From Trypanosoma brucei (Eukaryota): a stretch of 64,000 bases of DNA. A program made the translations under genes and the position numbers. Location of the stretch: positions 416,001 through 480,000 of the forward strand of contig CH464491.1 in assembly GCA_000002445.1 (NCBI GenBank), read 5' to 3'. Below the pieces are notes generated by a model. That model was not told the DNA's origin, searched no databases, and was given only the letters and a program-made list of their open reading frames with translations. Shown piece after piece: positions 16,296 to 45,603 of this stretch; position 1 is the first letter of the stretch; each line of letters starts with the position of its first letter.

Positions 16296-16352
16296 CCGCC
16301 CTTATTTTTGTCCAAACTATTTCCCCTTTGACCCCTTCCTTTTGTCGTCTGT
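16296..16352 (+). promoter_or_regulatory. polypyrimidine tract, likely the trans-splice acceptor region for GRESAG4
   Basis: cccttatttttgtccaaactatttcccctttgaccccttccttttgtcgtctgtaag lies ~40 nt upstream of the ATG at 16389. Confidence 0.45.
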
Positions 16353-16388
16353 AAGACATCTTAACGCTAAATAGAGACTAAACAAACA

Positions 16389-23071: not shown

Positions 23072-23491
23072 ATGTCCTTTTTCCAGTTGGATTGGGAATG
23101 TTCATATCAAGAGTATATGAAAATGATCTATCATCACGCAACGAACTATGTTCCGCCACGGGTTTCACAAGAGAGGCACCTCATCACTTGTAGGGAGCTG
23201 CTGAATGAAGCTCAGAGGGAATGCAAGGGAGGCAAGTATGATCTTTCCTTCTTTCACTACCTTCGGTGTATGGAGATTCTCACTAAGGTGGGGATACCCT
23301 CTACATACAAAGATTCAATGGTTCTGAAGAAGCAGTGTATGGATGCCATTGAAGCCCTCATGAATAGCGCTCTTAAAAATCACTATGAAAAAATGGTTAA
23401 AGAATTAAAGTCAAAGAAGGAAGGAGTTGATGCGGTTGACTATAAATTGTATGGCGACAGACTTGCCCACGTATCTGGGGGAAACAGCTAA
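23072..23491 (+). CDS. possible small helical protein (AMSH/USP8 N-terminal dimerisation-domain-like), either a stand-alone gene or a truncated remnant
   Basis: The 139 aa ORF has a polypyrimidine tract plus AG immediately upstream. The pattern VPPR...(helix)...GKYDLSFFHYLRCMEIL...YKDS...KKQ loosely resembles the N-terminal MIT-like domain of AMSH/STAMBP (IPPRRYFRSG...AFILYNKYITLF...HRDYKS). No JAMM domain follows it. The track start (23066) is a GTG. The ORF sits in an otherwise ORF-free 7.4 kb stretch. Confidence 0.2.
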   Translation: MSFFQLDWECSYQEYMKMIYHHATNYVPPRVSQERHLITCRELLNEAQRECKGGKYDLSFFHYLRCMEILTKVGIPSTYKDSMVLKKQCMDAIEALMNSALKNHYEKMVKELKSKKEGVDAVDYKLYGDRLAHVSGGNS

Positions 23492-26400: not shown

Positions 26401-27505
26401 TCACAGTTGTAATAATAGCAATGCGTGAAAACACAAATACACGCTCCTCAAATGCATGATACAACCAGAGGTGTAAATAGCTCAAATGGTAGGATTCTCG
26501 ACACATGTGGAAACGAATTAACTCAACTAGCAATATTTTAGTTATATCGAAGCCTTACCACAATCGGTTCAGCTAAAATACTTCAAACGAGTCCTTCAAA
26601 ACCCCTGTTTGTTAATGCTTTTATTTATTTTATTCTGATGCCTGGTGAGCATATTTGGCTGCGATGGATTACTGCTGTACATGTTGGATGTGCGAAATCT
26701 TTCTCTAAATTCACAGAAATATATATCGTACCGTCTTTCATTTTACTACTCCCTTACATTCTCTCCAAACATACATAGATGATACCATAGTCATTATAGC
26801 TATTGAGGAAACTGATACCTTGGTCTTACATTGCCCTGGTCGTGGCCGAAACTTGCAACTTGATTTGTCGTGCATTCCGCTATCCATGCTGGAAGTTGTG
26901 TTGTGCAATATTTTCCCTCCGAGTTATGAGGTGTGATAACTGTCAGTCCTTCAGTTGTGCCCTACCAATCGAATCCATCAGCACTATTTTATTGCATCTC
27001 CTCATTCACTTCCCCTTTTACACAGACATATTTCTACCATTAAAAGTTAAAATGTGACTCATAAGCGATGATGAGACCACACCGAGTTGTTTTGCTATTA
27101 CCTCAGTAGCACCACATGAAAGCAAAGTGTTGGCTTTGCATTGCCCTTCTGTGCCAATAGTCGAAAACAGAAATATAGTGAGGAATGTTTGTTATTATTT
27201 GGAATCCTTTTATTGAGTGTGACTTTGGAATCGTAACATAATTGAAATAAGCAGAGAATGTGTCATCCCTCCCTTCCCATTAATTTTCTACATGTGCTGA
27301 GAGGAGATGAAAAGTGTTTTCAGTGTTTGAAGTTTTGACATTTCAGTGGCATAATACTTCAAGTTAGTGGAAATAAAATTGCATACCCAATGCCATTATG
27401 ATGCAAATACATTCAACTGACAGCATTCAATCATCTCATTGCCAAACTTTGTTTCGACTCTCAGAAATAATATTTTTAGTAGAAAACGGCTACCAAACAT
27501 AAGTA

Positions 27506-30500
27506 ATGGGAACTACAATGTCAGGAAACCAAGGAAGAAAGCGACAGCGCATCTCAACTCCTGAGCACTCAGAAGCTTTAAAGGAACCATCAACTTCTCA
27601 AAAAAATACACCAACCACCATTACAATCACCGAAGAAATGCGTGACTCCAGTAATGAAGGAACTTTGGTATCATTACTGAATGAGCGTGAGAAGTTGATT
27701 AAAGAAACACCACGGCTGGAAAGCAATGTGAAGGCATTCAGATATTTTATGAGTGGTCTCACAGCTATGAGTGTTGAAAGGCAAGGTGGTGTGTGTGATG
27801 ACGCCAAATGCATACGTACAGTAACGTTATATCATGCTGCTGATAATTCCTTTAGTGGCAAAGGACTAAATGAAGGTGCTCTTTCCTCACTCTGTGGTCG
27901 CATTCAAGCTGAGAAATTAACCATCACAATGTCAGAAGGTGAGAAATTTGACTTACAAGGAGTCAGTGAGCTAAAGCAGTTGGAAGAGTTACGCATTGAA
28001 TACCCACGTGGAAAACTTGTGAATATGATATCTTTGAAGAGACTGCACATGTTGAAAAGGCTTTATCTTAAGAGTAACAACATTGACGACAATGACGTTA
28101 GCCATTTATTCAATATTGTAACGTTGGAGGATTTGGTTGTTGCTGACACCATGCAACTGACAAATATCAAAGGAATCTCTCGCTTGACTAACCTGAAGTG
28201 TCTTGAGTTTAATTACACAAGCATTGATGATAGCTGTATAGAGGAAATATGTGAATGTGCTACACTTTCCAAGCTGAGTGTATCTGAATGCAACAGCCTC
28301 ACGGATGTAACACCAATTTCACAACTTGCAGCACTAGAAGAGTTGAATCTAAGCAATTGCTACCACATAACGAAGGGAATAGGAGCACTTGTAAGGTTGT
28401 TGCGACTGCGTGCACTTGACTTGAGTGGTGTCTCTGTGGAAGATAATTTTCTTAAGGATTTGTGTGATTGTGGACCGCTGGAAAGGCTGAACCTTTCTCA
28501 TTGCATTCAGTTGACAGATATCAATCCACTCTCCAACGCCACTGCTATTCAGGAATTGAACCTTAACCGTTGTCACCGAATAACACAGGGGATAAGCGTT
28601 GTGTGGGAATTACCAAAGCTACGCGTATTGCACATGAAGGACATGCACCTGAGCGAGTCATCTCTTGATTCGGTTGGAACTAGCGAATCACTTGTAAAAT
28701 TAAGTATTGAAAACTGTGCAGGTTTTGGTGACATGACACTCTTATCCAGCTTTGTTGCACTCGAGGAACTGAATATTCAAAAATGTGCTGATATCATTAG
28801 TGGTGTGGGTTGCCTTGGTACACTACCGTACCTGCGTGTACTTAACATAAAGGAAGCACACATCTCTTCCATTGGCTTTACTGGTATTGGTGCCTCAAAA
28901 TCCCTTTTACAGCTCACTATAGAGAGTACCACGGGACTGAGTGATGTGGAAGCACTCGCTAACATTTTAACTCTGGAAAAACTAAGCCTTCTCGGTTGCA
29001 ATGGTATTGACGCTGGAATTGGATGTCTCGGTAACCTGCCACAGCTTAAAGTGTTGGATCTGTCTGGTACAAATACTGACAGTGATTCTCTCAGAGGTCT
29101 ATGCGTATCACAGACAATAGTGTCACTCAACCTTTCCCATTGTTGGAAAGTAACAAGTGTGTTCCATATTTCAGCCCTTGAAACATTGAATGAACTGAAT
29201 TTAAGTGACTGTATTAGGATAAATGCAGGATGGGAAGCACTTGAAAAACTTCAGCAGCTACATGTGGCAATCCTCTCGAATACACATATTACTGATAGAG
29301 ACATATCTCATTTCAGCAAGTGCAAAGAACTTGTTACGCTGGATCTTTCTTTCTGCGATGAGTTATTTGATATTACATCCCTCTCCAACATCACTACGCT
29401 TGAGGATTTGAATCTTGATAATTGTTCAAAGATTAGAAAAGGGCTGAGTGTTCTTGGAGAGCTACCACGGCTTCGTGTGTTGAACGTGAAGGGTGTCCAC
29501 TTGACGAATTCTGTTATTGGATCACTAGGGAATGGCAAATCATTTGTCAAACTTATTCTTGATAATTGCAAAGGATTAAGTGATGTCACATTTCTTTCGA
29601 GCCTTTCAACACTTAAGGAACTGAATCTTCACCACTGTGACGCGGTAACCTCTGGAATTGGAACGCTGGGAAGGTTATTGCAGCTTCGTGTACTGGATTT
29701 GGGATGGACAAAAATTGATAATAATTCCCTTGAGGATATCTGCGCGTGCTCAAGCCCACTTGTATCATTAAACCTTTCGCATTGTAAGGAAATAACATCT
29801 ATTTCTGCGATAGCTTCCCTTAATGCATTGGAGAAACTCAACATTGACAACTGCTGTCATGTAACATCCGGCTGGAATGTATTTGGTACACTTCACCAAC
29901 TGCGTGTGGCCGTACTGTCGAACACACGAATTAATGATGAAAACATACGGCACATCAGCGAGTGCAAGTCTTTGAATACACTCAACCTCGCATTTTGTAA
30001 TGACATAACGGACATCACGGCACTTTCTAACATTACTATGCTCAGGGAATTGAACATTGATTGGTGCTTCAATATCGAGAAAGGTGTCGAAGCTCTTGGA
30101 AAGCTGCCTAAGCTTCGCGAGCTAGATGCAAAGAAATGTGGAACAAGTGTTAGATGGATGCAACAATATCCTTACAACACACTCTTCAAATCACTTGTGA
30201 AACTGAATCTCGAGAATGGACGTGAATCATTTTGTGTGGGAACTCTCTCCTCAACTGCTATAGTTGAAGAATTGCTGCTGGGACGCGCTTGTGAGCCGTA
30301 TCATCTACCCCCAATCTCCAGCCTAAGACGACTTCGTGTACTGAATTTGGATGATGGAAGGGTCTGTGACATATGGCTTGAGGGGATCTCTCAATCCAAG
30401 TCACTGCAGTCACTTAACGTATCAAACTGTAATTATATAACCGATATATCAGCATTATCTTCCCTATCAACGTTGGAGGAACTGAATGTTAACTGCTGCG

Positions 30501-31705
30501 ATCGAATACGAAAAGGTTGGGAGGCATTTGAAGCTCTGACTCGACTACGTGTAGCAACCCTTTCCGTAACTTGGGTTACCAACGAAGGCATACGTCTCCT
30601 CAGCGGGTGCAAAAATCTCAGAAATTTGGAGCTGTACTGTTGTGGAGATGTGTCCAATATCGAGCCGATAAATAACATTAAGTCACTGGAAGAGCTCACC
30701 ATTCAGAACTGCCATAACATTAATGAAGGTCTGCTCAAGGTTGGAATGCTACCAAGGCTACGGGTATTGGTTTTAAGGAAATTACAATCCACTTATTTCT
30801 CCCTCAGTTCACTAGGAGAGAGCAAATCTCTAGTGAAACTCACTATCGAAGGACCTGAAGAACTATGCGACATCAAACTTATTTCCAACATTGCAACACT
30901 TAAGGAACTGAAAATCGCCCATGGTGACCGATTATTGAATGATGTAGGGGATCTTGGAAAACTGCCATGGCTTCATGTACTAACCCTGAGCCATTTCAAC
31001 ATGGGAAATACCTGTTTTGAGAGTGTCTGCAAGATTCGATCGTTGAAATCACTTGACATTACCCACTCATTTGAATTGCCAGACATATATCATATATCAA
31101 ACCTTACGGCACTAGAAGAACTGAATCTGAGCGGATGTTACCACATAATTTCAGGCTGGGAAGCACTGACCGCATTACCACGACTCCGTGTGCTCAACTT
31201 ATCGTCCACAAGAGTTACAACCAGTTACGGTGGATATTATATCAGCAGATGCAAATCCCTCATTACACTGAACCTTGAATCGTGTGATATGACCGATGCT
31301 TCTTGTCTTGCTGATATCAAGACACTAGAGGAGTTACACATAGGGAAGTGCGAAGAGCTAACGCGGGGGTTTAGTGCACTTTTCACTCTTCCACAGTTGC
31401 GCATTCTTAACCTTATGGATTCTCTCATTACAGATGAAGATCTCAGGGAAATTCAACTATCCCATACCATTGAGGATCTCAACCTCTCTTATTGCAAGGA
31501 GCTTAATGATATCACACCCGTTAGGAGGATCAAATCAATTAAAAAAATGGACCTCCACCGAAGCTCTGAAGGCAGGGGACTAAGGGAAGGATTCAGAAGT
31601 CTTTTGGAGCTACCATGTCTTTCCTGGGTTGATATCAAAAATGCTAATGTCAGTTTTGATGTTTATAAAGAACTGAAAGAAAGGAAAGTGGATATATACA
31701 ACTAG
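27506..31705 (+). CDS. leucine-rich repeat protein (LRRP), ESAG8-like LRRs, ~45 tandem LRR units, no RING finger
   Basis: A 1399 aa protein built almost entirely from ~24-residue repeats of the type LxxLxLSxCxxITDIxPLSxLxxLEELNLxxC, as in trypanosome ESAG8/LRRP1. The N-terminus MGTTMSG fits an N-myristoylation consensus, and a basic KRQR cluster follows it. The ORF starts at an ATG. Confidence 0.85.
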   Translation: MGTTMSGNQGRKRQRISTPEHSEALKEPSTSQKNTPTTITITEEMRDSSNEGTLVSLLNEREKLIKETPRLESNVKAFRYFMSGLTAMSVERQGGVCDDAKCIRTVTLYHAADNSFSGKGLNEGALSSLCGRIQAEKLTITMSEGEKFDLQGVSELKQLEELRIEYPRGKLVNMISLKRLHMLKRLYLKSNNIDDNDVSHLFNIVTLEDLVVADTMQLTNIKGISRLTNLKCLEFNYTSIDDSCIEEICECATLSKLSVSECNSLTDVTPISQLAALEELNLSNCYHITKGIGALVRLLRLRALDLSGVSVEDNFLKDLCDCGPLERLNLSHCIQLTDINPLSNATAIQELNLNRCHRITQGISVVWELPKLRVLHMKDMHLSESSLDSVGTSESLVKLSIENCAGFGDMTLLSSFVALEELNIQKCADIISGVGCLGTLPYLRVLNIKEAHISSIGFTGIGASKSLLQLTIESTTGLSDVEALANILTLEKLSLLGCNGIDAGIGCLGNLPQLKVLDLSGTNTDSDSLRGLCVSQTIVSLNLSHCWKVTSVFHISALETLNELNLSDCIRINAGWEALEKLQQLHVAILSNTHITDRDISHFSKCKELVTLDLSFCDELFDITSLSNITTLEDLNLDNCSKIRKGLSVLGELPRLRVLNVKGVHLTNSVIGSLGNGKSFVKLILDNCKGLSDVTFLSSLSTLKELNLHHCDAVTSGIGTLGRLLQLRVLDLGWTKIDNNSLEDICACSSPLVSLNLSHCKEITSISAIASLNALEKLNIDNCCHVTSGWNVFGTLHQLRVAVLSNTRINDENIRHISECKSLNTLNLAFCNDITDITALSNITMLRELNIDWCFNIEKGVEALGKLPKLRELDAKKCGTSVRWMQQYPYNTLFKSLVKLNLENGRESFCVGTLSSTAIVEELLLGRACEPYHLPPISSLRRLRVLNLDDGRVCDIWLEGISQSKSLQSLNVSNCNYITDISALSSLSTLEELNVNCCDRIRKGWEAFEALTRLRVATLSVTWVTNEGIRLLSGCKNLRNLELYCCGDVSNIEPINNIKSLEELTIQNCHNINEGLLKVGMLPRLRVLVLRKLQSTYFSLSSLGESKSLVKLTIEGPEELCDIKLISNIATLKELKIAHGDRLLNDVGDLGKLPWLHVLTLSHFNMGNTCFESVCKIRSLKSLDITHSFELPDIYHISNLTALEELNLSGCYHIISGWEALTALPRLRVLNLSSTRVTTSYGGYYISRCKSLITLNLESCDMTDASCLADIKTLEELHIGKCEELTRGFSALFTLPQLRILNLMDSLITDEDLREIQLSHTIEDLNLSYCKELNDITPVRRIKSIKKMDLHRSSEGRGLREGFRSLLELPCLSWVDIKNANVSFDVYKELKERKVDIYN

Positions 31706-34700
31706 TATTTGATCCATTGTTTTGTTCTGTATTATGGTAATATACAGAACAAGAACACATCATTAAATGTAACAGCCAGTTCGAGTAGTTAACTGACCGT
31801 AGGCACCGTTATTGGGACAGATGCCAGCAACAATTCACGTAAACTTTATTGGATTTTACAATAACTTGAATACGAGATATACAAGGATTTCATTACAGTT
31901 TTGTAATTGTTTCATTTTTTTGTAAATTATACCCATTACATATTGTGAAGAGTAAAGAACAGTTAGAAAAGCGTGTGTCCATACAACAAGCTTTTTGCCC
32001 AATGGAAATTTGTATTTTAGTTGTAAGAGTAATGATTATTATATTGCGCTCATTCATGTTACAACTATACCAAATGGACATCTTGTTATTTTGTACTTCA
32101 TTCTAACTTTATAACGACATACTCTCACACACATATATTGAATAAATTATTTTGATTATCATTTACTGACAGAAATAACAAAGAAACTTTATTATAAATT
32201 ATATCAGAGCGGCATCTTGAGCACCAAGTTATTACAAGGGAAATTATTTTACAACACATTACGTTTCTTGTAAATCTTTTTTTTATACTTGATACAGACA
32301 GACATATATTCTCAAGCAGTTCAACGAAATTACACTGCTTCATTAAAATATTTTAACTTATTGTATTTGTTTTGTAATAACATAATTTATCCTATTACAT
32401 TTCCTTTCGGAGCTATTTGAACTAACCGTTTATGAAGATGTCATACATTCTGAAGCCTCTTGTACACAAGAATGAAGTGGCGCTGTTCCAATAGAAAATC
32501 TTACTTCCCTATCTGGCCTTTGTTTTGTAACGTAACGTTGGCTTGTAATATTTTATGCCCCAAGATGTAACGAACCGAGAAGAAATTTCGTTTGTTTTAC
32601 AGACGCCTCCAAATAACCGCAACTGTATGTTTGTTATTTTCTGGATTGTTGAGTCGTCCCCTGCTCTTTTTGCAACATTGAAACCCATTACTTTTCTTCA
32701 CTAGTGCGGAATATATTCTATGTTGATGTTTTGTTGTTACTTGGTGATATTTGCGTACCCTACTACTGTAAGATAGCGAAGTAGAAGAACTACATTTCTA
32801 AGGGTCGGAGGTTTCTGTTCCTACAGAAGTAAAAGAGTGTTGTGTTTCAAGGGATGCGTGCGCGGTGTGGCAATGTTGTTGAGCAGCGATACTGTCTTGA
32901 ACCCATGAAACCAAAAGGTGGAGAATATTTGGCCCCTCAAGGGTAATTATCATAGCATTCCGTGTGTTATTTTTTATAATGGAACTGAAGTGAGCCAGGT
33001 GGGTTTTTTAAATCTTCATACATGAACAGTGGTGTCAATTACCTCCTAGTGCATGCATGATACCGTCTTTCATATATGGATATTGAACCTACCAAACACC
33101 CAATGAATACGACCTTACGCCGTGCGTCACTTGTCTTCAATATTTTGAATGTTGTGTTCACTTAACTTTTCTCACCCTCAATAGTGTTGGAGGTGTGGAT
33201 AAGACTCAGAAAACGCGATACAGTTACGCTACAGAACAATGAAGTAGAGGGTAACGTGCTGATGGCAAAATTTTTACTTTCAATGCCTTTGCGGCCGGCG
33301 TCCTTTCCTCCTCGGTGAAACTCACGATTTTCCTTTCAACATCCCTGCGTTAGATGCATGGCACGCGAAAACATAACCATACCCACATGCAACCGTGTGC
33401 ATTAGGAGTGTGCATAACCGGGATGTTGGGAAAGAGCCCCCGATGCGACGCCGTATCATTTATGACTATGCCGGTGGTCGAAAACAGGGAACTTCCTCGT
33501 TCTCATTGGGCCCACCCATTCATAAGGTCTGGCGGTCGGGGATGGCCTTAATGCGACAGGTACACGTACGGCGACGCTGGAGACGGCTGCATTGTCAACG
33601 GGTAAGCCAAGTTCCTCTATGCGTCCTAATCTTTAGAGTTTTTGGCAGTCGGTTGGTTGAGAGCTCCTGTTTTGAAGAAAAGTAGCCATACCATCTGTTC
33701 TCTGAAGTGCTAAGGGTATCGCGTTTTCTTCCCGAACTCGAAGACGCACTACTTTGGGGATATATAGACTGGCTGTCATTCAGTGCGGATGTTGAGCACA
33801 ACCAAGGGTCCAAATTTTCACAGATGTTAATGAGGTGCCGGGGATCTTTCCCAGTCGAAAAGGCTCGAAATGATCGAGCATTCATGTGACTTCGAAGTCG
33901 ACTTCCACCTTCCGTAAACACAACCACGTACCGGAGTGGGCGAACACATACATTTCATGACGCCCTCGTGTTGGAATAGTATGGTTTCCCATAGGAGAAT
34001 GAACGTCCATACAGATCAGGAATAACAATGGTGCAATACAAAGTCAAAATCCTGTGGTGACCCCTCGGAGTATCAGTCACGTTTTCGCTTACAAAGAAGG
34101 TGCAAACTACGCTCGTGTGTATGCGGTCCCTGGGCCTATTCGCAGCAGTTATGTGTTGCAATCTCACTGCGGGGTCCAATGCGTATTTTAAAGGGCCAAT
34201 TAGAAAAACTTATACGTGGACTTACACAACTAATCCTTTGTCAGTTGATCCAGGTAAACTTTATCAGCAACAGGGTCATGCGGCTGTTCTTTATGGAATG
34301 TAATGGTGGGAAATAGGGGTGAGACCGTGAGGATATTTCGAAACTGCAAATCGTTAGTGAAACAGAAGGGAAAGGGAAAACATTACAGAATAAACTGGTA
34401 AGAACTGATACTCTAAATAAAGGTTGAGAGGGATCTCGCAGAACTGAGTGCAGTTTTGAGCGGTGATTGACAAAAGGCTGTCTCATTAGTTGATTGAGGA
34501 AGAAACTTACGTACCTGGTCCAGTGTGTCGCTTCCTTCTCTTCACTCTAACGGCAACATTGCATTAACTGAATTCTGCAGCTGTTGAGGGGGATGGGCAC
34601 GCAAAAGTACCTTATGTGTTTGGAGGCGCGGGCAAAACCAGGAAAAAGTAGTTCTCGTCACCCTGGTGAGTTTCACCCTCTTCCGTGCAGGTTTGTCTTT

Positions 34701-37660
34701 TAGCGTTTTCGGTACCGTTTTCAACATTGCTGTTGGCGCTGCTTCCACGCGGCAACTGCATCCCAATATTCAGATGTCCCTTTAATCCTGTATTTTTCCA
34801 TGTTGCCGATGATTATCGTTTCTGTGCCCGATGAAGCGTCTAAACTCACCAGTTCATTTGTTGAAACTTTTCACTCCTTCTTATTGAATATCCCTATTTT
34901 TTGCGGCGTATGAGAGCCCTCCCCCATTCGTCTTTTGCGTTTGCTTTTATACCCACCCACGGAAAGCAAATTTATTTTCTCCTCGGAATCAACATCCAAG
35001 GAGCTTTAAGTGTGGAGTGCACCCTGATTTTCGCCTTCGGAGCACCAGACCTCCACTGTATTCAGCCATTCAGGTATTGGATGACTTCTAGGATATTGCC
35101 GGTTTATTATGTCTGAAAAGCATCCTTTTTGGCACTTGACGTGAGGCGGTATTCCACAGCCCACTTTTTTGGTCTTTTCAAACAAATATCAGTCGTGCTT
35201 ATTTGAGCATATCTTGTTTGTTTGCGTGCGACGAAATCTCAGCAATCGTGTATGCCGACTGAGCTTCCTTGCTTTTCGCTTTCTCCCCGCTTGAAATGGA
35301 AACGGAGAACCGTAGAAATAATACCATAGTCCATCTTTGCTTAGATGGGTCGAGAGTGGAAAGCTGTCGGTGTTTCTTGGGAGTTTTGCTCAGGTGATAG
35401 CACAACTCTTGGCTTTATGAATCTTGTCGTCGCTGCCGCCGCCATTTGCCACACATAGATTGGTACCCCTTCGGTTGCCACAATGCGGCGCCAAACAGAT
35501 TTGGCGTATTGGCATCGCTCACCATTTTTCCACGACTCGTGAAAGCGCATGGCTCTCGAGTGCTCGGTCCAAGTGATTTGTACTCCACCTCCGCCGGCAC
35601 TTCCGTAAAGTGTCCCGTTTATCGCTCGGTCACAAATTACAGAACCTGCTATAACTTACCTCTAAATTCTCCTCGTCCGAATTGAGTCACTGTGAGTTCC
35701 ATTTCGTAACTGAATAAACTGTGCGCGAGTCCAGGGATCACGTTCAGTTCTTTGCCCGGTCGTCCCATCATTATGAGCCCGGACCCGACACAGACGTATG
35801 AGGAACAGTGCATGTCGACTCTACACTCCCCGATAAAGTGTTGTTTACTCCGTTTTGTTTTTGAGGGGGCTGTGAGAAGAACTGCCAAGCCCATACCCAT
35901 TGCCAAGTAATGTACAAAACTCATCGATCCCCATTTTCATACCACGGTTAAGAGAAGCGTCGCAAAGAGTGAGTTTTTGAAACGCCCACCGAACCCAACC
36001 GTCACCGCCTCCGCGCGGGAGGCAGGTTAAGGGCACTTCCACCACCTTCTTTACCGCCAGTAAATTAACTTCCATACAATTGAGGACTCGCACACTACAG
36101 AAATCCCCCTCCCAAGCAATTTTAACGGCCGGCGTTGTAGGCACAACAAAGGTTAAAATATTACTCCTCCTGCTCGTTTTCTCTTCATTCAACACAAAAA
36201 AGGCAATGTATGGACTGTTCTGCCCGTTTTTTTTTTTTTGAGAGAGAGGGATAGTGAGGCTTCTGCAGCGGTAAAATTGCGAGTCAAGTGTTACCACGCT
36301 GTGGGAGGACACGACGTATAATGAAGGAAACTTTTTTTTTGCTTGCGGGCGGTTTAAAGGGATATGCGTTTAAACCATTATATCTTGAGTGGGTGGCGCC
36401 CGAAAAAGATCGCGAAGCAGGCATGAAGCTTGCGAAACTTCTTGGGGCTCAAAGGACCAACGACACGGTGAACTTGACAAAATTTGAGGGATGTAGAAGC
36501 TACATGTTGAGGAGAGCACAATGCATTAGCACGGTTCCCTAGGGCACTGGCTTTATGGAAACGGTGGTAAGATACCCGCTGGGGAGGCGAGCCAAACGTG
36601 CATTCATTTGGTGTATGGACTGCTAATAAACAAATGTAACAGGCGGAAGTCGGAGTTGTCGCACGCGGTGAGGCACCCCGTTGAGACGGAAGTATGGACC
36701 GAAACAACCCTCACATATAAAATGAAGCGTTCGCGTCACCCCCCCCCCCCCAGCGGCAGACATTGGCATATATGCGTTCGCGCTTGCACTTCATGTCAAT
36801 TTCGCCACTGAAAGGAGCACTCCATCCTGCGTGTGTGTGTGTGTGTGCTTGCCTGTGCATCTTTTTTCGAACGCCGTTGTTTTTATGTACGAAACGGAGG
36901 GCGGGGAGGGAGGGGAATCCCAGGTGGAAGTTATATTTCATGGCAGGGGAATATTGCTGACAGAATACTGTTACCAGTGCCCCGGCTGGTGGGGTTCGCC
37001 AACACGAAAGGACAATAGTGAAAAAAAATAAGGACTGGGGGAATAAAAATTTACAGAAGTTACACAGTTAAAAACACCATGAGCAATCGACGATTTCCAG
37101 ACCCTCTAGCACCACGATTCGGAGGTATTATTACACATTCCAGAATTTGTAGAGGTTCAAATTCAAGTTCCACGGTTCCAGTAATCCATCAGCCCTCACA
37201 AAACGTGTAAAGAAGCGCCAAGTTACTTCATGAGTCTCATCCGACCCATCTCATTCACGCTTTTCAAATACATACACTACAAAAAATCTACTCCCTCCGG
37301 TCTCCACAGGACGCACAAATTTGTCAGCGTGAACCCTGGTCCATGACGTAGAAAGTGTCTTGCGCCACCCGAAATACGTGGCTGAAGGATTTCGCGGGAC
37401 GGATACAAACCCCGCTGGGTAAAAGTGTGTGGGAGTTATCGTGCCTTCCGGGACCTATCTCCACAGCACATGTTTTCACCTCAGGGCAAAACGCATGTGG
37501 CCGCCTCATGCGAAATGGCATATCGGGAACACACCGCACACAGCACATCGGATACTAGCACCTACTCGACTACAAACAAGTAGAAAACGCACATGCATAG
37601 TACATTACGCCCCAGCAACGGGGGTCCTCCCCATTGATGGACGTGATGCGTGCCGAAGAA

Positions 37661-37728
37661 CGTGGACTGTAATTTTACCCGAGGTGTAAGCGCGATGAAT
37701 CACACCTCGGGTAAAATTACAGTCCACG
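37661..37728. repeat. perfect 27 bp inverted repeat (hairpin with 14 nt loop) about 95 nt downstream of the last gene of the minus-strand polycistronic unit
   Basis: The left arm cgtggactgtaattttacccgaggtgt, the loop aagcgcgatgaatc and the right arm acacctcgggtaaaattacagtccacg are read directly from the sequence. The right arm is the exact reverse complement of the left arm. Confidence 0.9.
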
Positions 37729-37822
37729 AGCCTCGTCCACACGACCGGATGGGCAACTGCGTTGGAAACTACTTATGAAACAGAGTTAATAGTTTCTTTT
37801 GTTTAGAGGCGGGGGTCACACG

Positions 37823-38995
37823 CTATTTTCTCAGTGGTCGAATAAGCCATCTAGGGTCTGAAATGTCCGAGAGAGGGCACACACCACTAAGTTTCATATA
37901 CCGGCGTGCGCCCCACACAGTGTGGACTTCTACAGAGCTATTCTCCAATAGACGTCTGTAGGCATTTTTCTGTTGGAAGGAAGAATCTCGAAGGGCTCTA
38001 AACCAACTTGTTTGGTTGAGATATTTGGGCATCAGGTTCCTCCACGCACTAATTGAGGTTGGGAAGTGCAAAACCACGCCACTTTCGACCGAAACACTGT
38101 GGGGATAATGAAAAAAACGCGTCTCGTAATCGAGGGATATAATTCCCCTTCGCAGCAGTAATTTTGGCTTCACATGCTTCGGCCTACTGACGCTCCATGT
38201 CAACACTATAGTCCACATAGTTTGATCACATAGCCAAATAAGGCTCTGGCGTCTCAAATTAAAGAAAACTTTCAAAGCCTCTTTTAGCGCCCACACTCTG
38301 GCTATCACGCCTCCGCCATTAAGATACGACCTTCCCGATTCATTTACCCTTAAAATATTTTCAACTCCCACACCCCTTGTTGCATCCATTGCGTCATCAA
38401 ACAACTTCTTACAGTTTTGAAACTCCGACCTCCCCTCCGGCTTCACCATGATATTCAGCTGAGGAGTAGCGCAACCCTTCTCAGCGGTAAACAACATTGG
38501 AGGTGTCATTTCTCCTCTTAAAATAGCCGTCTCGTTGAACGCTTCAGGGATTTTTGGTGTAGTGTCGAGGAAATGCTTCACTGCCTCCTCCCTAACACCT
38601 GCATCGGTGAAATAGGTATCTCCCCCATCGAACAACATAATCACATCACTTTCGCGCATCTTCTCACGCACCATGTAACTATAAATCCAGTCCCACCTCT
38701 TCACATGCCCATACCAGCCTCCCATGCCCAGTGTCGCAACCGATGCATTAGTGAGTATAGAACTTACAATCATCCTGCACCACCCCGGAGAGTACCTCGT
38801 GTGCACCACAGCATAATACACCCTCGGCGTATAATTTCTACCACTGTCTTTCTTTCTTAACAACGTCCCTGTTTCCTTGTTCCTCACGCTCATTTCTCCC
38901 AAAAACCAGAGCACAGTTAGCAGCATCACCCCCACCATCGCGGCATATAGTCTTCCCCTTGTGCCCCCATAAATTGCCCTAGCCCCTTTCAACAT
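37823..38995 (-). CDS. type II membrane protein, glycosyltransferase-like (GT-A fold, DGGD DxD-type motif; PLOD/LH3 N-terminal GT-domain-like), paralog A
   Basis: An N-terminal signal anchor (LYAAMVGVMLLTVLWFLG) is followed by VATLGMGGWYGHVKRW...DVIMLFDGGDTYFTD, which resembles the GT domain of lysyl hydroxylase/PLOD (TLGLGEEW...MIIMFVDSYDVIL). The functional call is tentative. The track start at 39010 is a TTG. The first ATG gives MLKGARAIYGG..., matching the N-terminus of paralog B. Confidence 0.45.
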   Translation of the reverse strand: MLKGARAIYGGTRGRLYAAMVGVMLLTVLWFLGEMSVRNKETGTLLRKKDSGRNYTPRVYYAVVHTRYSPGWCRMIVSSILTNASVATLGMGGWYGHVKRWDWIYSYMVREKMRESDVIMLFDGGDTYFTDAGVREEAVKHFLDTTPKIPEAFNETAILRGEMTPPMLFTAEKGCATPQLNIMVKPEGRSEFQNCKKLFDDAMDATRGVGVENILRVNESGRSYLNGGGVIARVWALKEALKVFFNLRRQSLIWLCDQTMWTIVLTWSVSRPKHVKPKLLLRRGIISLDYETRFFHYPHSVSVESGVVLHFPTSISAWRNLMPKYLNQTSWFRALRDSSFQQKNAYRRLLENSSVEVHTVWGARRYMKLSGVCPLSDISDPRWLIRPLRK

Positions 38996-39128
38996 ATAAA
39001 AACTTCGCAAAAAAAAAATGGATTTACTTGGAGAAGGGTGATGCTTTTCCCCTCAACTCGGACACAGTGCGGATGCGTTTTTTTTTTTTTTAACTCTGGC
39101 GAACGGTTCGTAAAAATTCCGTGCGATG

Positions 39129-40292
39129 TTACTTTTTCAACTGCCCACTGAGCCAACTGGGGTCGGAGATGTTAGATATGGGGCATACGGTACTTAACTT
39201 AGCGTCTTTGCGGGAACCCCAGAAAGTGTACATCTCCACAGTGGAATTTTTCAGCAAACGAATGGAGGCCTCCCGCTTGGGGGAAGAATTGCTCAGTGCT
39301 CTATACCAATTTATCTCACTCAGATACTGTGGCAATGTACGCTTCCACACGTGAACTGGTCCCGCAAAATGCAGTATCATTCCACTCATAACCATCGTCT
39401 TGGATGGATAAAGGAAGTAACGCGTCTCATAGTCAAGAGATATTAGCCCCCTTCTCACCAACAGCGCTGGCTTTATATTCTCCGGCCTGGTGATACTCCA
39501 TATTAGCAAGAGTGCCCACATTGACTGGTCGCAACCCCAAACAAACTTTTTTTTTCTGAGGTTAAAGAATGCCTTCAGAGCCTCTTCTAGTGCCCACACC
39601 CTGGCAATTATTCCTCCCCCGTTGAGATACGATCTTCCCGATTCATTCGCCCTTAAAATAGAACGCAACCCTGTGCGATTGGAAACTACGAACGCCTCGT
39701 TGTACAGTTTACTGCACTGATGAGCGCGCTCGCTCTTAGGTGTCTTTACCATGAAATGACTTTGAGGGGTGAAACAGAAATTTTCGGCGGCCATCAACAT
39801 TGGAGGTGTCATTTCCCCTCTTAAAATAGCCGTCTCGTTAAACGCTTCAGGGATTTTTGGTGTAGTGTCGAGGAAATGCTTCACTGCCTCCTCCCTTACA
39901 TCCTCCCCTGTGAAGACCGTATCGCCCCCATCAAATATCACAATCACGTCACCCTCACTCATCTTCTTCTGCCGTAGGTACCGGTACAACCACAACCACC
40001 TGCTCACATGCCCATACCAGCCTCCCATGCCCACTGTGGCAACGCTCACATTAGTGAGTATCGAACTTACAATCATCCTGCACCACCCCGGCGCGTACCT
40101 CGTTTCTGCAACAAGAAAAAACACCCTTGGTATGTGATTACCGTAACTTCCATCCTTCTTCCCCTCCACGCTAGTTTCCCCACTCCCTACATTTCTTAAC
40201 CCCAACCACCAAAAAAATAACATCAGCACCAACCCCATAACATACAACCTGCCCCTTGAATCCCCATAGAATTCCCTAACACCTTTCAGCAT
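39129..40292 (-). CDS. type II membrane protein, glycosyltransferase-like, paralog B (tandem duplicate of 37823-38995)
   Basis: About 70% aa identity to paralog A, with the same VATVGMGGWYGHV and FDGGDT motifs. It starts MLKGVREFYGD at an ATG. The intergenic spacer to paralog A is only ~120 bp and contains a T13 tract. Confidence 0.45.
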   Translation of the reverse strand: MLKGVREFYGDSRGRLYVMGLVLMLFFWWLGLRNVGSGETSVEGKKDGSYGNHIPRVFFLVAETRYAPGWCRMIVSSILTNVSVATVGMGGWYGHVSRWLWLYRYLRQKKMSEGDVIVIFDGGDTVFTGEDVREEAVKHFLDTTPKIPEAFNETAILRGEMTPPMLMAAENFCFTPQSHFMVKTPKSERAHQCSKLYNEAFVVSNRTGLRSILRANESGRSYLNGGGIIARVWALEEALKAFFNLRKKKFVWGCDQSMWALLLIWSITRPENIKPALLVRRGLISLDYETRYFLYPSKTMVMSGMILHFAGPVHVWKRTLPQYLSEINWYRALSNSSPKREASIRLLKNSTVEMYTFWGSRKDAKLSTVCPISNISDPSWLSGQLKK

Positions 40293-40431: not shown

Positions 40432-43400
40432 ACCAAAAACACATAAATATGTGCAACACCGATTATCTCGGGATGCTGATGCTCCCACTCGCCTACATAT
40501 GAAGGCAGTGGGTCTCAATGCATACCTCGTTAAATGTGAACCCAACGATAACGATATTCTGTGGGACAGATTCAAATAGATGAGACAACAGAGTAGTGTG
40601 CAGGCATTCAATACGTACAACAGTCAGACCTGTTGAGTTTGATTTAGTATTCAATAAGCGCGCTCATAAAGTAAGGCATATTGACCTTCACGTACACATA
40701 ATCGTTGTTTCCATCACACTGCCGCGTCTGTTGTGCATTCCCCCCATTTTCTTATCCACCTTCCCACCCAGATACCACAAACAAACCGCATGATCTCTCT
40801 TACACTTTCGAGCCAATACCGTCACCGAAAGTATACTGACAGGCAGCCAGACAGGGTAAGATTTGGTTCTAATGACATAATGCTGCGTAGAGCAAAGGTA
40901 GTGGGGGGGGGGAAAAAAAAGGATGTGGAGAGGGATGGAGGAAGGAAGGGAACGAGCTGCATAGCAGGCCATTGCTCAGCCGAAAGGTGATTTTTGATGT
41001 TCCGTTATCAATGCATCGCTCAAACTGTTTGGACCTCGAACAACAATTATGCATCACAGCATCAGTGGCCAAAAAGAAAACTAGTAGCACACATATACAC
41101 ACACACGAACATAAACATAAACATAAACATAAACAGGGATGAATGACCTATGAGGAAGAGGGTGGATAAAAACAAAATAATAAGGATGGATGATACTCGA
41201 TTCAGTGTGAGCTGAGTTAAAAATTATGTCTTCAAAATGGCTCTACTGCCGTCAGGCTGACAGGAAACTATTGACTGTCATCATTAGAGGGGAAGATAAT
41301 GCATTTGAGTGCCAAAACTACAAATGGCTCTCGCGCAACAGGACAGGGGCCACATCCCCACGGCATTAAATGGTTGCCACTGGCCCAAGGGATGCTGCGC
41401 TGTATTGTTTCAACAGCACATAAGCAAAAACACATAAATATGTGCAACACCGATTATCTCGGGATGCTGATGCTCCCACTCGCCTACATATGAAGGCAGT
41501 GGGTCTCAATGCATACCTCGTTAAATGTGAACCCAACGATAACGATATTCTGTGGGACAGATTCAAGTAGATGAGACAACAGAGTAGTGTGCAGGCATTC
41601 GATACGTACAACAGTCAGACCTGTTGAGTTTGATTTAGTATTCAATAAGCGCGCTCATAAAGTAAGGCATATTGACCTTCACGTACACATAATCGTTGTT
41701 TCCATCACACTGCCGCGTCTGTTGTGCATTCCCCCCATTTTCTTATCCACCTTCCCACCCAGATACCACAAACAAACCGCACGATCTCTCTTACACTTTC
41801 GAGCCAATACCGTCACCGAAAGTATACTGACAGACAGCCAGACAGGGTAAGATTTGGTTCTAATGACATAATGCTGCGTAGAGCAAAGGTAGTGGGGGGG
41901 GGAAAAAAAAGGATGTGGAGAGGGATGGAGGAAGGAAGGGAACGAGCTGCATAGCAGGCCATTGCTCAGCCGAAAGGTGATTTTTGATGTTCCGTTATCA
42001 ATGCATCGCTCAAACTGTTTGGACCTCGAACAACAATTATGCATCACAGCATCAGTGGCCAAAAAGAAAACTAGTAGCACACATATACACACACACGAAC
42101 ATAAACATAAACATAAACAGGGATGAATGACCTATGAGGAAGAGGGTGGATAAAAACAAAATAATAAGGATGGATGATACTCGATTCAGTGTGAGCTGAG
42201 TTAAAAATTATGTCTTCAAAATGGCTCTACTGCCGTCAGGCTGACAGGAAACTATTGACTGTCATCATTAGAGGGGAAGATAATGCATTTGAGTGCCAAA
42301 ACTACAAATGGCTCTCGCGCAACAGGACAGGGGCCACATCCCCACGGCATTAAATGGTTGCCACTGGCCCAAGGGATGCTGCGCTGTATTGTTTCAACAG
42401 CACATAAGCAAAAACACATAAATATGTGCAACACCGATTATCTCGGGATGCTGATGCTCCCACTCGCCTACATATGAAGGCAGTGGGTCTCAATGCATAC
42501 CTCGTTAAATGTGAACCCAACGATAACGATATTCTGTGGGACAGATTCAAATAGATGAGACAACAGAGTAGTGTGCAGGCATTCGATACGTACAACAGTC
42601 AGACCTGTTGAGTTTGATTTAGTATTCAATAAGCGCGCTCATAAAGTAAGGCATATTGACCTTCACGTACACATAATCGTTGTTTCCATCACACTGCCGC
42701 GTCTGTTGTGCATTCCCCCCATTTTCTTATCCACCTTCCCACCCAGATACCACAAACAAACCGCATGATCTCTCTTACACTTTCGAGCCAATACCGTCAC
42801 CGAAAGTATACTGACAGGCAGCCAGACAGGGTAAGATTTGGTTCTAATGACATAATGCTGCGTAGAGCAAAGGTAGTGGGGGGGGGGGAAAAAAAAGGAT
42901 GTGGAGAGGGATGGAGGAAGGAAGGGAACGAGCTGCATAGCAGGCCATTGCTCAGCCGAAAGGTGATTTTTGATGTTCCGTTATCAATGCATCGCTCAAA
43001 CTGTTTGGACCTCGAACAACAATTATGCATCACAGCATCAGTGGCCAAAAAGAAAACTAGTAGCACACATATACACACACACGAACATAAACATAAACAT
43101 AAACACGGGATGAATGACCTATGAGGAAGAGGGTGGATAAAAACAAAATAATAAGGATGGATGATACTCGATTCAGTGTGAGCTGAGTTAAAAATTATGT
43201 CTTCAAAATGGCTCTACTGCCGTCAGGCTGACAGGAAACTATTGACTGTCATCATTAGAGGGGAAGATAATGCATTTGAGTGCCAAAACTACAAATGGCT
43301 CTCGCGCAACAGGACAGGGGCCACATCCCCACGGCATTAAATGGTTGCCACTGGCCCAAGGGATGCTGCGCTGTATTGTTTCAACAGCACATAAGCAAAA

Positions 43401-45603
43401 ACACATAAATATGTGCAACACCGATTATCTCGGGATGCTGATGCTCCCACTCGCCTACATATGAAGGCAGTGGGTCTCAATGCATACCTCGTTAAATGTG
43501 AACCCAACGATAACGATATTCTGTGGGACAGATTCAAATAGATGAGACAACAGAGTAGTGTGCAGGCATTCAATACGTACAACAGTCAGACCTGTTGAGT
43601 TTGATTTAGTATTCAATAAGCGCGCTCATAAAGTAAGGCATATTGACCTTCACGTACACATAATCGTTGTTTCCATCACACTGCCGCGTCTGTTGTGCAT
43701 TCCCCCCATTTTCTTATCCACCTTCCCACCCAGATACCACAAACAAACCGCATGATCTCTCTTACACTTTCGAGCCAATACCGTCACCGAAAGTATACTG
43801 ACAGGCAGCTAGACAGGGTAAGATTTGGTTCTAATGACATAATGCTGCGTAGAGCAAAGGTAGTGGGGGGGGAAAAAAAAGGATGTGGAGAGGGATGGAG
43901 GGAGGAAGGGAACGAGCTGCATAGCAGGCCATTGCTCAGCCGAAAGGTGATTTTTGATGTTCCGTTATCAATGCATCGCTCAAACTGTTTGGACCTCGAA
44001 CAACAATTATGCATCACAGCATCAGTGGCCAAAAAGAAAACTAGTAGCACACATATACACACACACGAACATAAACATAAACATAAACATAAACAGGGAT
44101 GAATGACCTATGAGGAAGAGGGTGGATAAAAACAAAATAATAAGGATGGATGATACTCGATTCAGTGTGAGCTGAGTTAAAAATTATGTCTTCAAAATGG
44201 CTCTACTGCCGTCAGGCTGACAGGAAACTATTGACTGTCATCATTAGAGGGGAAGATAATGCATTTGAGTGCCAAAACTACAAATGGCTCTCGCGCAACA
44301 GGACAGGGGCCACATCCCCACGGCATTAAATGGTTGCCACTGGCCCAAGGGATGCTGCGCTGTATTGTTTCAACAGCACATAAGCAAAAACACATAAATA
44401 TGTGCAACACCGATTATCTCGGGATGCTGATGCTCCCACTCGCCTACATATGAAGGCAGTGGGTCTCAATGCATACCTCGTTAAATGTGAACCCAACGAT
44501 AACGATATTCTGTGGGACAGATTCAAATAGATGAGACAACAGAGTAGTGTGCAGGCATTCAATACGTACAACAGTCAGACCTGTTGAGTTTGATTTAGTA
44601 TTCAATAAGCGCGCTCATAAAGTAAGGCATATTGACCTTCACGTACACATAATCGTTGTTTCCATCACACTGCCGCGTCTGTTGTGCATTCCCCCCATTT
44701 TCTTATCCACCTTCCCACCCAGATACCACAAACAAACCGCACGATCTCTCTTACACTTTCGAGCCAATACCGTCACCGAAAGTATACTGACAGGCAGCTA
44801 GACAGGGTAAGATTTGGTTCTAATGACATAATGCTGCGTAGAGCAAAGGTAGTGGGGGGGGAAAAAAAAGGATGTGGAGAGGGATGGAGGAAGGAAGGGA
44901 ACGAGCTGCATAGCAGGCCATTGCTCAGCCGAAAGGTGATTTTTGATGTTCCGTTATCAATGCATCGCTCAAACTGTTTGGACCTCGAACAACAATTATG
45001 CATCACAGCATCAGTGGCCAAAAAGAAAACTAGTAGCACACATATACACACACACGAACATAAACATAAACATAAACATAAACAGGGATGAATGACCTAT
45101 GAGGAAGAGGGTGGATAAAAACAAAATAATAAGGATGGATGATACTCGATTCAGTGTGAGCTGAGTTAAAAATTATGTCTTCAAAATGGCTCTACTGCCG
45201 TCAGGCTGACAGGAAACTATTGACTGTCATCATTAGAGGGGAAGATAATGCATTTGAGTGCCAAAACTACAAATGGCTCTCGCGCAACAGGACAGGGGCC
45301 ACATCCCCACGGCATTAAATGGTTGCCACTGGCCCAAGGGATGCTGCGCTGTATTGTTTCAACAGCACATAAGCAAAAACACATAAATATGTGCAACACC
45401 GATTATCTCGGGATGCTGATGCTCCCATTCGCCTACATATGAAGGCAGTGGGTCTCAATGCATACCTCGTTAAATGTGAACCCAACGATAACGATATTCT
45501 GTGGGACAGATTCAAATAGATGAGACAACAGAGTAGTGTGCAGGCATTCAATACGTACAACAGTCAGACCTGTTGAGTTTGATTTAGTATTCAATAAGCG
45601 CGC
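40432..45603. repeat. tandem direct-repeat array: 5 full + 1 partial copies of a 984-991 bp unit, >99% identical
   Basis: The same 60-137 aa ORFs recur at 984-991 bp spacing (e.g. minus-strand ORF starts at 41450, 42434, 43421, 44410, 45399). The unit landmark cacataaatatgtgcaacacc falls at ~40440, 41431, 42415, 43402, 44391 and 45380. Copies differ only by a few SNPs, (CATAAA)3 vs (CATAAA)4, and a G8-11 A8 block. The array ends abruptly at ...caataagcgcgctc / ttttttttttggg. Confidence 0.95.
42180..42275 (-). ncRNA. candidate C/D-box snoRNA, one per repeat unit (coordinates given for the third copy); speculative
   Basis: On the minus strand the unit reads ...ccucuAAUGAUGAcagucaauaguuuccugucagcCUGAcggcaguagagccauuuugaagacauaauuuuuaacucagcucacaCUGAaucgag.... 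This gives a consensus C box (AUGAUGA), a CUGA about 22 nt downstream (D') and a second CUGA about 80 nt downstream (D), so the element is ~90 nt, a typical size for a trypanosome C/D snoRNA. The terminal stem is weak. No covariance search or expression data were available. Confidence 0.2.

What the first reader, a model, noticed from the sequence alone, without database searches (positions are those of the whole stretch)
37661..37728. Perfect 27 bp inverted repeat at the end of the minus-strand polycistron, within the convergent strand-switch region
The arms cgtggactgtaattttacccgaggtgt and acacctcgggtaaaattacagtccacg are exact reverse complements separated by a 14 nt loop. A 27 bp perfect stem is far longer than chance in a non-repetitive region. 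The hairpin lies ~95 nt past the stop codon of the last gene of the unit (37823), so it falls in the 3' UTR or read-through RNA. Trypanosoma brucei has an active RNAi pathway, and endogenous siRNAs derive from inverted repeats and from convergent transcription. This hairpin would form a Dicer-sized dsRNA stem exactly where two polycistrons converge. Alternatively, it could be a transcription-termination, mRNA 3'-end or stability element.
Basis: partly seen in the sequence, partly recalled or inferred. Interest (0 to 1): 0.6.

Follow-up and report, generated by a model that had tools for sequence, protein, structure and literature searches.

The report
Perfect 27-bp hairpin after ESAG3-like gene
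A real, perfect 27-bp hairpin-forming repeat lies just after the last gene of a Trypanosoma brucei transcription unit and occurs in all four related genomes checked, but it looks most like a young DNA-copying accident and nothing here shows it has a function.

Summary
The arms at 37661-37687 and 37702-37728 are exact reverse complements around a 14-nt spacer. No other non-low-complexity hairpin repeat was found in the 64-kb window, and chance cannot explain it (expected about 1e-9 per window; fold z = -9 to -12).

The window is T. b. brucei TREU927 chromosome 11. The hairpin starts 94 nt after the TAG stop of an ESAG3-like gene, which is the last clear gene of the minus-strand unit. It sits at the edge of a 6.1-kb gene-free convergent strand-switch region.

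It is identical in T. b. gambiense DAL972, T. b. equiperdum and T. equiperdum OVI, so it is neither an assembly error nor a private indel. The flanks are about 99.4% identical too, so this says nothing about selection.

- The pairing stops sharply at the 27-bp core.
- No other copy, transposon hallmark, paralogous flank or RNA-family membership was found.
- Published small-RNA counts for what is almost certainly this strand-switch region are among the lowest in the genome.

Best reading: a young inverted duplication made by template switching, carried inside the predicted 3'UTR. It could be diced or bound by a protein, but neither is shown. Interest is low.

The parts
37661..37687 (.). Left arm of the perfect 27-bp inverted repeat
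   Evidence: Identical in L001, L004 and L005.
37688..37701 (.). 14-nt spacer (AAGCGCGATGAATC). On the minus-strand RNA its outer two positions pair, leaving a 10-nt loop.
   Evidence: Identical in all four genomes.
37702..37728 (.). Right arm, the exact reverse complement of the left arm
37823..38995 (-). ESAG3-like gene (390 aa; XP_828241 / EAN79129, 'ESAG protein, putative'). It is the last clear protein-coding gene of the minus-strand unit. Its TAG stop at 37825-37823 is 94 nt from the hairpin.
   Evidence: No Pfam match.
39129..40292 (-). Upstream tandem paralogue of the ESAG3-like gene (387 aa, 58% identical)
   Evidence: Collapsed with its neighbour into one 279-aa gene in T. b. gambiense.
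31706..37822 (.). Gene-free convergent strand-switch gap between the last plus-strand gene (LRRP, 27506-31705) and the ESAG3-like gene
   Evidence: no ORF over 155 aa. No tRNA. No Rfam family at gathering score. No remnants of the window's own proteins.
37020..37034 (-). First polypyrimidine tract on the minus strand downstream of the ESAG3-like stop codon. A stronger one lies at 36891-36917. It predicts a poly(A) site near 37.1-37.2 kb, which would put the hairpin inside a 3'UTR of roughly 650 nt.
   Evidence: The tract is shown. The poly(A) placement is my inference from the known coupling of polyadenylation to downstream polypyrimidine/trans-splice signals in trypanosomes. The hairpin persists when the whole predicted UTR is folded.

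Best explanation
The hairpin is a young, single-copy inverted duplication. Most likely one short template-switch event during DNA replication or repair copied 27 nt of nearby sequence in reverse complement. This happened in the common ancestor of the Trypanozoon group. The repeat lies in the region transcribed as the 3'UTR or read-through RNA of the last ESAG3-like gene of the minus-strand unit. That RNA will carry a very stable 27-29-bp stem-loop. The structure is probably a tolerated by-product, not an element maintained for siRNA production, termination or mRNA control.

Shown: the repeat exists, its boundaries are sharp, it is single copy in the available sequence, and it is present in four genomes.

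Inferred: the template-switch origin, the placement inside the 3'UTR, and the lack of function.
For: - The arms are perfect, while the flanks pair no better than shuffled sequence. A sharp boundary with zero arm divergence fits a one-step copy. An old structural RNA usually shows G-U pairs, bulges and compensatory changes.
- My calculation: zero differences in 27 paired sites is only likely (P >= 0.05) if less than about 5% neutral divergence per site has passed since formation or the last homogenisation. This makes it young relative to species splits outside Trypanozoon.
- Template switching is documented to create perfect reverse-complement repeats in one event at loci with no earlier similarity. 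One example is a 28-base event that created a hairpin stem (PMC10710096; PMC5453318).
- No other copy exists in the window or in a paralogous ESAG3-like array (L006).
- The 3' flank has no homology to the flank of that array or to the spacer between the two local paralogues.
- There are no pseudogene remnants in the gap.
- There is no Rfam membership.
- Region-level small-RNA counts for the chr 11 strand-switch region at about 443-456 kb are low. This argues against an efficient Dicer substrate.
- The surrounding genes belong to lineage-specific families: ISG65/75, adenylate cyclase, LRRP and ESAG3-like.
Against: - No outgroup carrying the pre-duplication state could be obtained, so the template-switch origin is not demonstrated.
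- No clear microhomology for fold-back priming is visible at the spacer-arm junctions.
- Conservation in four genomes is compatible with function as well as with neutrality. With 5 variable columns in 801, the chance of seeing none in 68 nt is about 0.65.
- The stem length of 27-29 bp does match one Dicer product (22-25 nt bound to AGO1).
- The position at a unit end is suggestive.
- Small-RNA data were available only as region totals. The link between those coordinates and this window is inferred from the T. b. gambiense coordinates (hairpin at FN554974.1 449,067-449,134).
Confidence: 0.55

Rival explanations
1. The hairpin is an endogenous short-hairpin substrate for the trypanosome Dicers, most likely nuclear DCL2. 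It would yield one discrete siRNA or miRNA-like duplex, or its cleavage would sever the ESAG3-like mRNA from its poly(A) tail and lower its level.
For: - The 27-29-bp perfect stem with a 10-14-nt loop is very stable.
- It lies in a convergent strand-switch region. All 49 surveyed regions of this class gave DCL2-dependent AGO1-bound small RNAs (PMC3447711).
- The region that by coordinates covers it gave 461 reads, falling to 2% in dcl2-/- cells.
- Weak, generic resemblance to miRNA-precursor models.
Against: - Known siRNA-producing inverted repeats in T. brucei are 422-10,011 bp long.
- No miRNA-like RNAs were found in two life stages (PMC3683921).
- 461 reads over 9 kb, split almost evenly between strands (268/193), fits diffuse convergent transcription better than one hairpin. 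The figure of 2.7 RPM in bloodstream forms is among the lowest listed.
- The Rfam scores of about 26 bits are far below the gathering thresholds of 61 and 70.
- No second site complementary to the arms exists in the window.
Confidence: 0.13
2. The hairpin is a cis-acting stem-loop in the 3'UTR of the ESAG3-like mRNA. A protein would bind it to set mRNA stability, translation or stage-specific expression.
For: - It begins 94 nt after the stop codon.
- It lies upstream of the first polypyrimidine tract on that strand, so it is predicted to be in the mature 3'UTR.
- It remains the dominant local structure when the whole predicted UTR is folded.
- Gene control in trypanosomes is largely post-transcriptional, through 3'UTRs (general knowledge).
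Against: - The upstream paralogue and the chr 10 ESAG3-like array lack it, so it is not a family feature.
- In the cases I know of, protein-bound stem-loops are short and imperfect, not 27 perfect pairs.
- No covariation is available.
- The poly(A) site was not measured.
Confidence: 0.12
3. The hairpin acts at the DNA or transcription level at the end of the unit. It could be a pause or termination signal for RNA polymerase II, or a cruciform-forming site affecting replication or recombination in the strand-switch region.
For: - It sits at the end of the minus-strand unit.
- The DNA hairpin is stable (-32.4 kcal/mol).
- Its position coincides with the change in GC skew near 38 kb.
Against: - Termination at T. 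brucei unit ends is attributed to base J and histone H3.V chromatin, not to hairpins (PMC4721609).
- A polypyrimidine tract and a small ORF annotated in T. b. gambiense lie further downstream on the same strand. This suggests transcription continues past the hairpin.
- A 14-nt spacer disfavours cruciform extrusion (general knowledge).
- No similar element was seen elsewhere in the window.
Confidence: 0.06
4. The hairpin is an assembly artefact, a private indel of the reference strain, or a copy of a miniature foldback transposon.
For: Short perfect palindromes can arise from chimeric reads. The arms resemble terminal inverted repeats.
Against: - It is identical in four independently sequenced genomes.
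- It is single copy in all sequence available here.
- I saw no target-site duplication when reading the flanks.
- To my knowledge, no DNA transposons are known in T. brucei.
Confidence: 0.03

Closest known systems
Inverted repeats and hairpins generated by template-switch mutation (Loytynoja & Goldman 2017, PMC5453318; Monttinen et al. 2023, PMC10710096)
   Same: Both are perfect reverse-complement repeats with a short spacer, created de novo in otherwise unrelated sequence. The arm length here (27 nt) is like the documented 28-nt event. Both have sharp boundaries and lie in a transcribed region.
   Different: The before-and-after states are not available here, so the event itself is not observed. 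Those studies are on primates and rodents, and nothing comparable has been catalogued for trypanosomes in the papers searched.
T. brucei siRNA-producing loci: long inverted repeats IR1-IR7 and convergent transcription units (Tschudi et al. 2012, PMC3447711)
   Same: The organism is the same. Both involve an inverted repeat able to fold back. This one lies inside a convergent transcription unit, probably CTU44, that yields DCL2-dependent small RNAs at the region level.
   Different: The arms are 27 bp against 422-10,011 bp. No small RNAs have been assigned to the hairpin itself, and the region's read count is low.
Animal/plant miRNA precursors and synthetic shRNAs
   Same: Both are single stem-loops of about 70 nt, with a stem close to Dicer-product length and a loop of at least 10 nt.
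   Different: The stem here is fully perfect. Rfam scores are far below threshold. Trypanosomes have no known Drosha-type step and no known miRNAs. No target site was found.

Membership tests
Template-switch-generated inverted repeat | Perfect reverse-complement repeat close to its source, with a short spacer | tested here: met
   27/27 complementary positions with a 14-nt spacer.
Template-switch-generated inverted repeat | Sharp boundary: similarity ends at the switch points | tested here: met
   Flank pairing is no better than shuffled flanks (p = 0.11 and 0.6).
Template-switch-generated inverted repeat | An ancestral or outgroup sequence has only the source arm, with unrelated sequence at the target site | not testable with these tools
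   All four Trypanozoon genomes already carry it. The T. congolense contig is only 3.1 kb. The T. vivax contig ends 2.1 kb past the IVD gene and shows a different gene order.
T. brucei long inverted-repeat siRNA loci (IR1-IR7) | Near-identical inverted arms hundreds to thousands of bp long | tested here: not met
   The arms are 27 bp, against 422-10,011 bp.
T. brucei long inverted-repeat siRNA loci (IR1-IR7) | AGO1-bound 22-25-nt RNAs map to the repeat | not testable with these tools
   Only region totals are published: 461 reads and 2.7 RPM.
Convergent-transcription-unit siRNA region | Lies between converging polycistronic units | tested here: met
   Plus-strand genes run up to 31705 and minus-strand genes start from 37823.
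Convergent-transcription-unit siRNA region | DCL2-dependent small RNAs from both strands | tested here: inconclusive
   CTU44 gave 268 top-strand and 193 bottom-strand reads, falling to 2% in dcl2-/-. The match between CTU44 and this window is inferred from coordinates only.
miRNA precursor families (Rfam mir-729, mir-1204) | Score at or above the family gathering threshold | tested here: not met
   25.9 bits against 61, and 25.7 bits against 70. Nothing reached the gathering score.
Trypanosomatid single-hairpin H/ACA-like snoRNA | Match to a described family, and a hairpin with an internal pseudouridylation pocket | tested here: not met
   The stem is uninterrupted. There is no snoRNA hit at the hairpin, whereas genuine TB11Cs4 snoRNAs nearby score 67-90 bits.
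Miniature foldback transposon | Multiple dispersed copies | tested here: inconclusive
   Single copy in the window and in the paralogous locus L006. The whole genome could not be searched.
Miniature foldback transposon | Flanking target-site duplication | tested here: not met
   I found no flanking duplication when reading the sequence.

The most novel reading that the evidence does not exclude
The hairpin is a newly born endogenous short-hairpin RNA gene in a trypanosome. It would have been created by one template-switch event and be processed by DCL2 or DCL1 into a single AGO1-loaded small RNA. Alternatively, it is cleaved in cis to down-regulate the ESAG3-like mRNA. Either way it would be the first miRNA-like or hairpin-autoregulatory locus in a lineage where none is known.
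Probability: 0.08. Interest if true: 0.6.

Novelty: new member of a known kind. Interest (0 to 1): 0.2.

Why it matters
If the ordinary reading is right, it matters little. It is a clean example of how a perfect hairpin can appear in one step in a trypanosome 3'UTR, and a warning that a long perfect stem near a strand-switch region is not in itself evidence of an RNAi or termination element. If the hairpin proved to be diced into a discrete small RNA, it would give a natural test case for how new small-RNA loci arise in an early-branching eukaryote with RNAi but no known miRNAs. Existing public small-RNA libraries could settle this quickly.

Tried and rejected
- **Chance:** rejected.
- **Assembly error or private indel:** rejected, because the hairpin is identical in T. 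b. gambiense DAL972 (L001), T. b. equiperdum (L004) and T. equiperdum OVI (L005).
- **Feature shared by ESAG3-like gene flanks:** rejected. There is no similarity to the spacer between the two local paralogues or to the flank of the chr 10 array in T. b. gambiense.
- **Decayed pseudogene of a neighbouring gene:** no tblastn hit better than E = 0.02 in the gap.
- **Known RNA family:** nothing at gathering score. Only sub-threshold generic miRNA-model hits appeared. No tRNA.
- **Larger imperfect palindrome around the core:** not supported.
- **Selection test from conservation:** no power, because the flanks are about 99.4% identical.
- **Outgroup for the ancestral state:** failed. The T. congolense contig is too short, and the T. 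vivax contig ends early with a different gene order.
- **Exact look-ups of TREU927 proteins in the contig index:** found nothing.
- **Literature searches:** the old gene ID and the arm sequence both returned nothing.
- **Python access to loci:** L003, L004 and L006 never appeared in the Python data folder, so L006 was pasted by hand and L004 was read with the sequence tools.

Full report
**1. Observation**

The sequence at 37661-37728 is as described. The 27-nt arm CGTGGACTGTAATTTTACCCGAGGTGT (37661-37687) is followed by the 14-nt spacer AAGCGCGATGAATC, then by the exact reverse complement at 37702-37728.

A window-wide scan for inverted repeats of at least 18 nt within 300 nt found only this one, apart from AT/TA low-complexity palindromes at about 12.4, 24.2 and 51.0 kb. 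The arm has no further match with up to 3 mismatches, and no shuffle produced one. My own estimate of the chance expectation is about 1e-9 per window.

Predicted stabilities:

| Molecule | Energy (kcal/mol) | z-score |
|---|---|---|
| Minus-strand RNA | -67.1 | -11.4 |
| Plus-strand RNA | -56.2 | -9.1 |
| Single-stranded DNA | -32.4 | -11.8 |

On the minus-strand RNA, two spacer positions add pairs, giving a 29-bp stem and a 10-nt loop. The repeat finder's 34-nt, 91% extension is not meaningful. With the core fixed, the real flanks pair no better than shuffled flanks (p = 0.11 on the minus strand, 0.6 on the plus strand). The feature is a sharply bounded perfect core.

**2. Context**

The window is T. 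brucei brucei TREU927 chromosome 11. Four of the five ORFs looked up are exact matches to TREU927 entries EAN79128, 79129, 79130 and 79132. The TB11Cs4 H/ACA snoRNA cluster is present in 5-6 tandem units at 40466-45468 on the minus strand.

The long ORFs lie on the plus strand up to 31705. The last of these is a 1399-aa leucine-rich repeat protein, Tb11.53.0001. From 37823 onward the genes are on the minus strand. The 6.1-kb gap between them has these properties:
- no ORF above 155 aa
- no tRNA
- no RNA family at gathering score
- no detectable remnant of any of the window's proteins

The gene next to the hairpin (37823-38995, minus strand, 390 aa) is an ESAG3-like 'ESAG protein, putative'. 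It is 58% identical to its upstream tandem neighbour at 39129-40292. Its TAG stop is at 37825-37823, 94 nt from the hairpin.

On the minus strand, the first polypyrimidine tracts downstream of that stop are at 37034-37020 and 36917-36891. In trypanosomes, polyadenylation is positioned by the next downstream polypyrimidine/trans-splice signal (established knowledge). I therefore infer a 3'UTR of roughly 650 nt that contains the hairpin. The stem-loop remains the dominant local structure when that whole stretch is folded.

The plus-strand genes closest to the gap and the two ESAG3-like genes belong to lineage-specific surface or ES-related families: ISG65/75, receptor adenylate cyclase, LRRP and ESAG3-like.

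**3. Other genomes**

Three syntenic loci were fetched through neighbouring proteins:
- T. b. gambiense DAL972 chr 11 (L001)
- T. b. equiperdum GCA_003543875.1 (L004)
- T. equiperdum OVI (L005)

All three carry both arms and the spacer without any change.

It does not show selection. An 801-column alignment around the hairpin has only 5 variable columns. The chance of none falling in 68 nt is about 0.65 (my calculation).

No deeper outgroup was obtainable. ESAG3-like proteins were found only in T. brucei subspecies. The T. congolense contig with the neighbouring isovaleryl-CoA dehydrogenase gene is 3.1 kb. The T. vivax contig ends 2.1 kb after that gene, with a DUF1295 gene following on the same strand. 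The layout there is different, at least locally.

**4. What it is not**

- It is not a shared feature of ESAG3-like gene flanks.
- It is not a member of any Rfam family. The only hits are generic miRNA-precursor models at about 26 bits, against thresholds of 61 and 70.
- It lacks the internal pocket of trypanosomatid single-hairpin H/ACA RNAs.
- It shows no transposon hallmarks. It is single copy in the available sequence, and I saw no target-site duplication in the flanks.

**5. Small-RNA literature**

Tschudi et al. 2012 found AGO1-bound siRNAs at all 49 convergent units surveyed and at seven long inverted repeats of 422-10,011 bp. Their CTU44 (chr 11, 447-456 kb) had 461 reads out of 6.8 million annotated (268 top strand, 193 bottom strand). 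This fell to 2% in dcl2-/- cells.

Reynolds et al. 2016 list a chr 11 convergent region at 443,663-454,995 with 2.7 RPM in wild type and 9 RPM in the H3.V knockout. That is among the lowest values in the part of the table I read.

The T. b. gambiense hairpin lies at 449,067-449,134 on its chr 11, and the LRRP gene ends near 443.1 kb. These published regions therefore almost certainly cover this locus. That link is an inference from coordinates.

The low, strand-balanced counts fit diffuse convergent transcription. They argue against the hairpin being an efficient Dicer substrate, but they cannot exclude a weak one. A two-stage small-RNA survey found no miRNA-like RNAs in T. brucei.

**6. Most likely explanation**

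Four properties fit a one-step inverted duplication:
- perfect arms
- sharp boundaries
- a single copy
- a position in fast-evolving, lineage-specific non-coding sequence

Template switching during replication is documented to create exactly such perfect reverse-complement repeats at loci with no earlier similarity. One example is a 28-base event that created a hairpin stem.

Zero differences in 27 paired positions imply that little neutral divergence has accumulated since formation, less than about 5% per site at P >= 0.05 (my calculation). The repeat is therefore older than the very shallow Trypanozoon radiation, but young on the scale of trypanosome species.

I put this neutral-origin, no-dedicated-function reading at about 0.55. 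The rivals are:

| Rival reading | Confidence |
|---|---|
| Genuine Dicer substrate | 0.13 |
| 3'UTR protein-binding element | 0.12 |
| DNA-level or termination element | 0.06 |
| Artefact or transposon | 0.03 |

**7. Verdict**

The feature is a new instance of a known kind of sequence feature, and its interest is low. The one inexpensive and decisive test is per-nucleotide mapping of the existing AGO1-IP and small-RNA libraries onto the two arms.

Noticed in passing
window 40466-45468 (minus strand): Tandem array of 5-6 units, about 985-989 bp apart, each carrying the H/ACA-like snoRNAs TB11Cs4H1, H2 and H3 (67-90 bits). The distance from the hairpin to the IVD gene differs between assemblies: 9.1 kb in TREU927 and 3.8 kb in T. 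b. equiperdum L004. The array is aligned in T. b. gambiense (L001), but its copy number there was not counted.
   Followed up: partly
window 37823-40292; L001 10001-10840: The two tandem ESAG3-like genes of TREU927 (58% identical) correspond to a single 279-aa gene in T. b. gambiense DAL972. The alignment jumps from window 39795 to 38827. This looks like a recombination or deletion between the paralogues, or an assembly collapse.
   Followed up: partly
window 12987-31705 (plus strand) and 37823-40292 (minus strand): Relatives of expression-site gene families cluster on both sides of the strand-switch gap at a chromosome-internal site. They are ISG65/75 (12987-14300), receptor adenylate cyclase/GRESAG4-like (16389-20105), ESAG8-like LRRP (27506-31705) and two ESAG3-like genes.
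   Followed up: partly
L007 (T. vivax NLFJ01000259.1) 10001-13255: In T. vivax the isovaleryl-CoA dehydrogenase gene is followed on the same strand by a DUF1295 gene about 1 kb downstream. In T. brucei the same gene is followed by the snoRNA array, the ESAG3-like genes and the strand switch. The end of this unit may therefore be specific to T. brucei. The contig ends too early to be sure.
   Followed up: no
window 20106-27505: A 7.4-kb stretch between the adenylate cyclase and LRRP genes has no ORF of 180 aa or more and has low G+C (0.39-0.45). It also contains an AT/TA low-complexity palindrome at 24159-24202. Its content was not examined.
   Followed up: no
window 37722-37727 and 37735-37740: The hexamer GTCCAC at the end of the right arm recurs 7 nt downstream of it. 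This could be microhomology used in a template-switch return, but by my rough estimate it is not statistically remarkable.
   Followed up: no
window 36624-36941 (minus strand); L001 12049-12366: A 105-aa ORF is annotated in T. b. gambiense about 700 nt downstream of the hairpin on the same strand, just after the polypyrimidine tracts. In TREU927 it is only 76 aa (36711-36941). It may mark a further processed transcript beyond the ESAG3-like gene. If so, that gene would not strictly be the last transcript of the unit.
   Followed up: no
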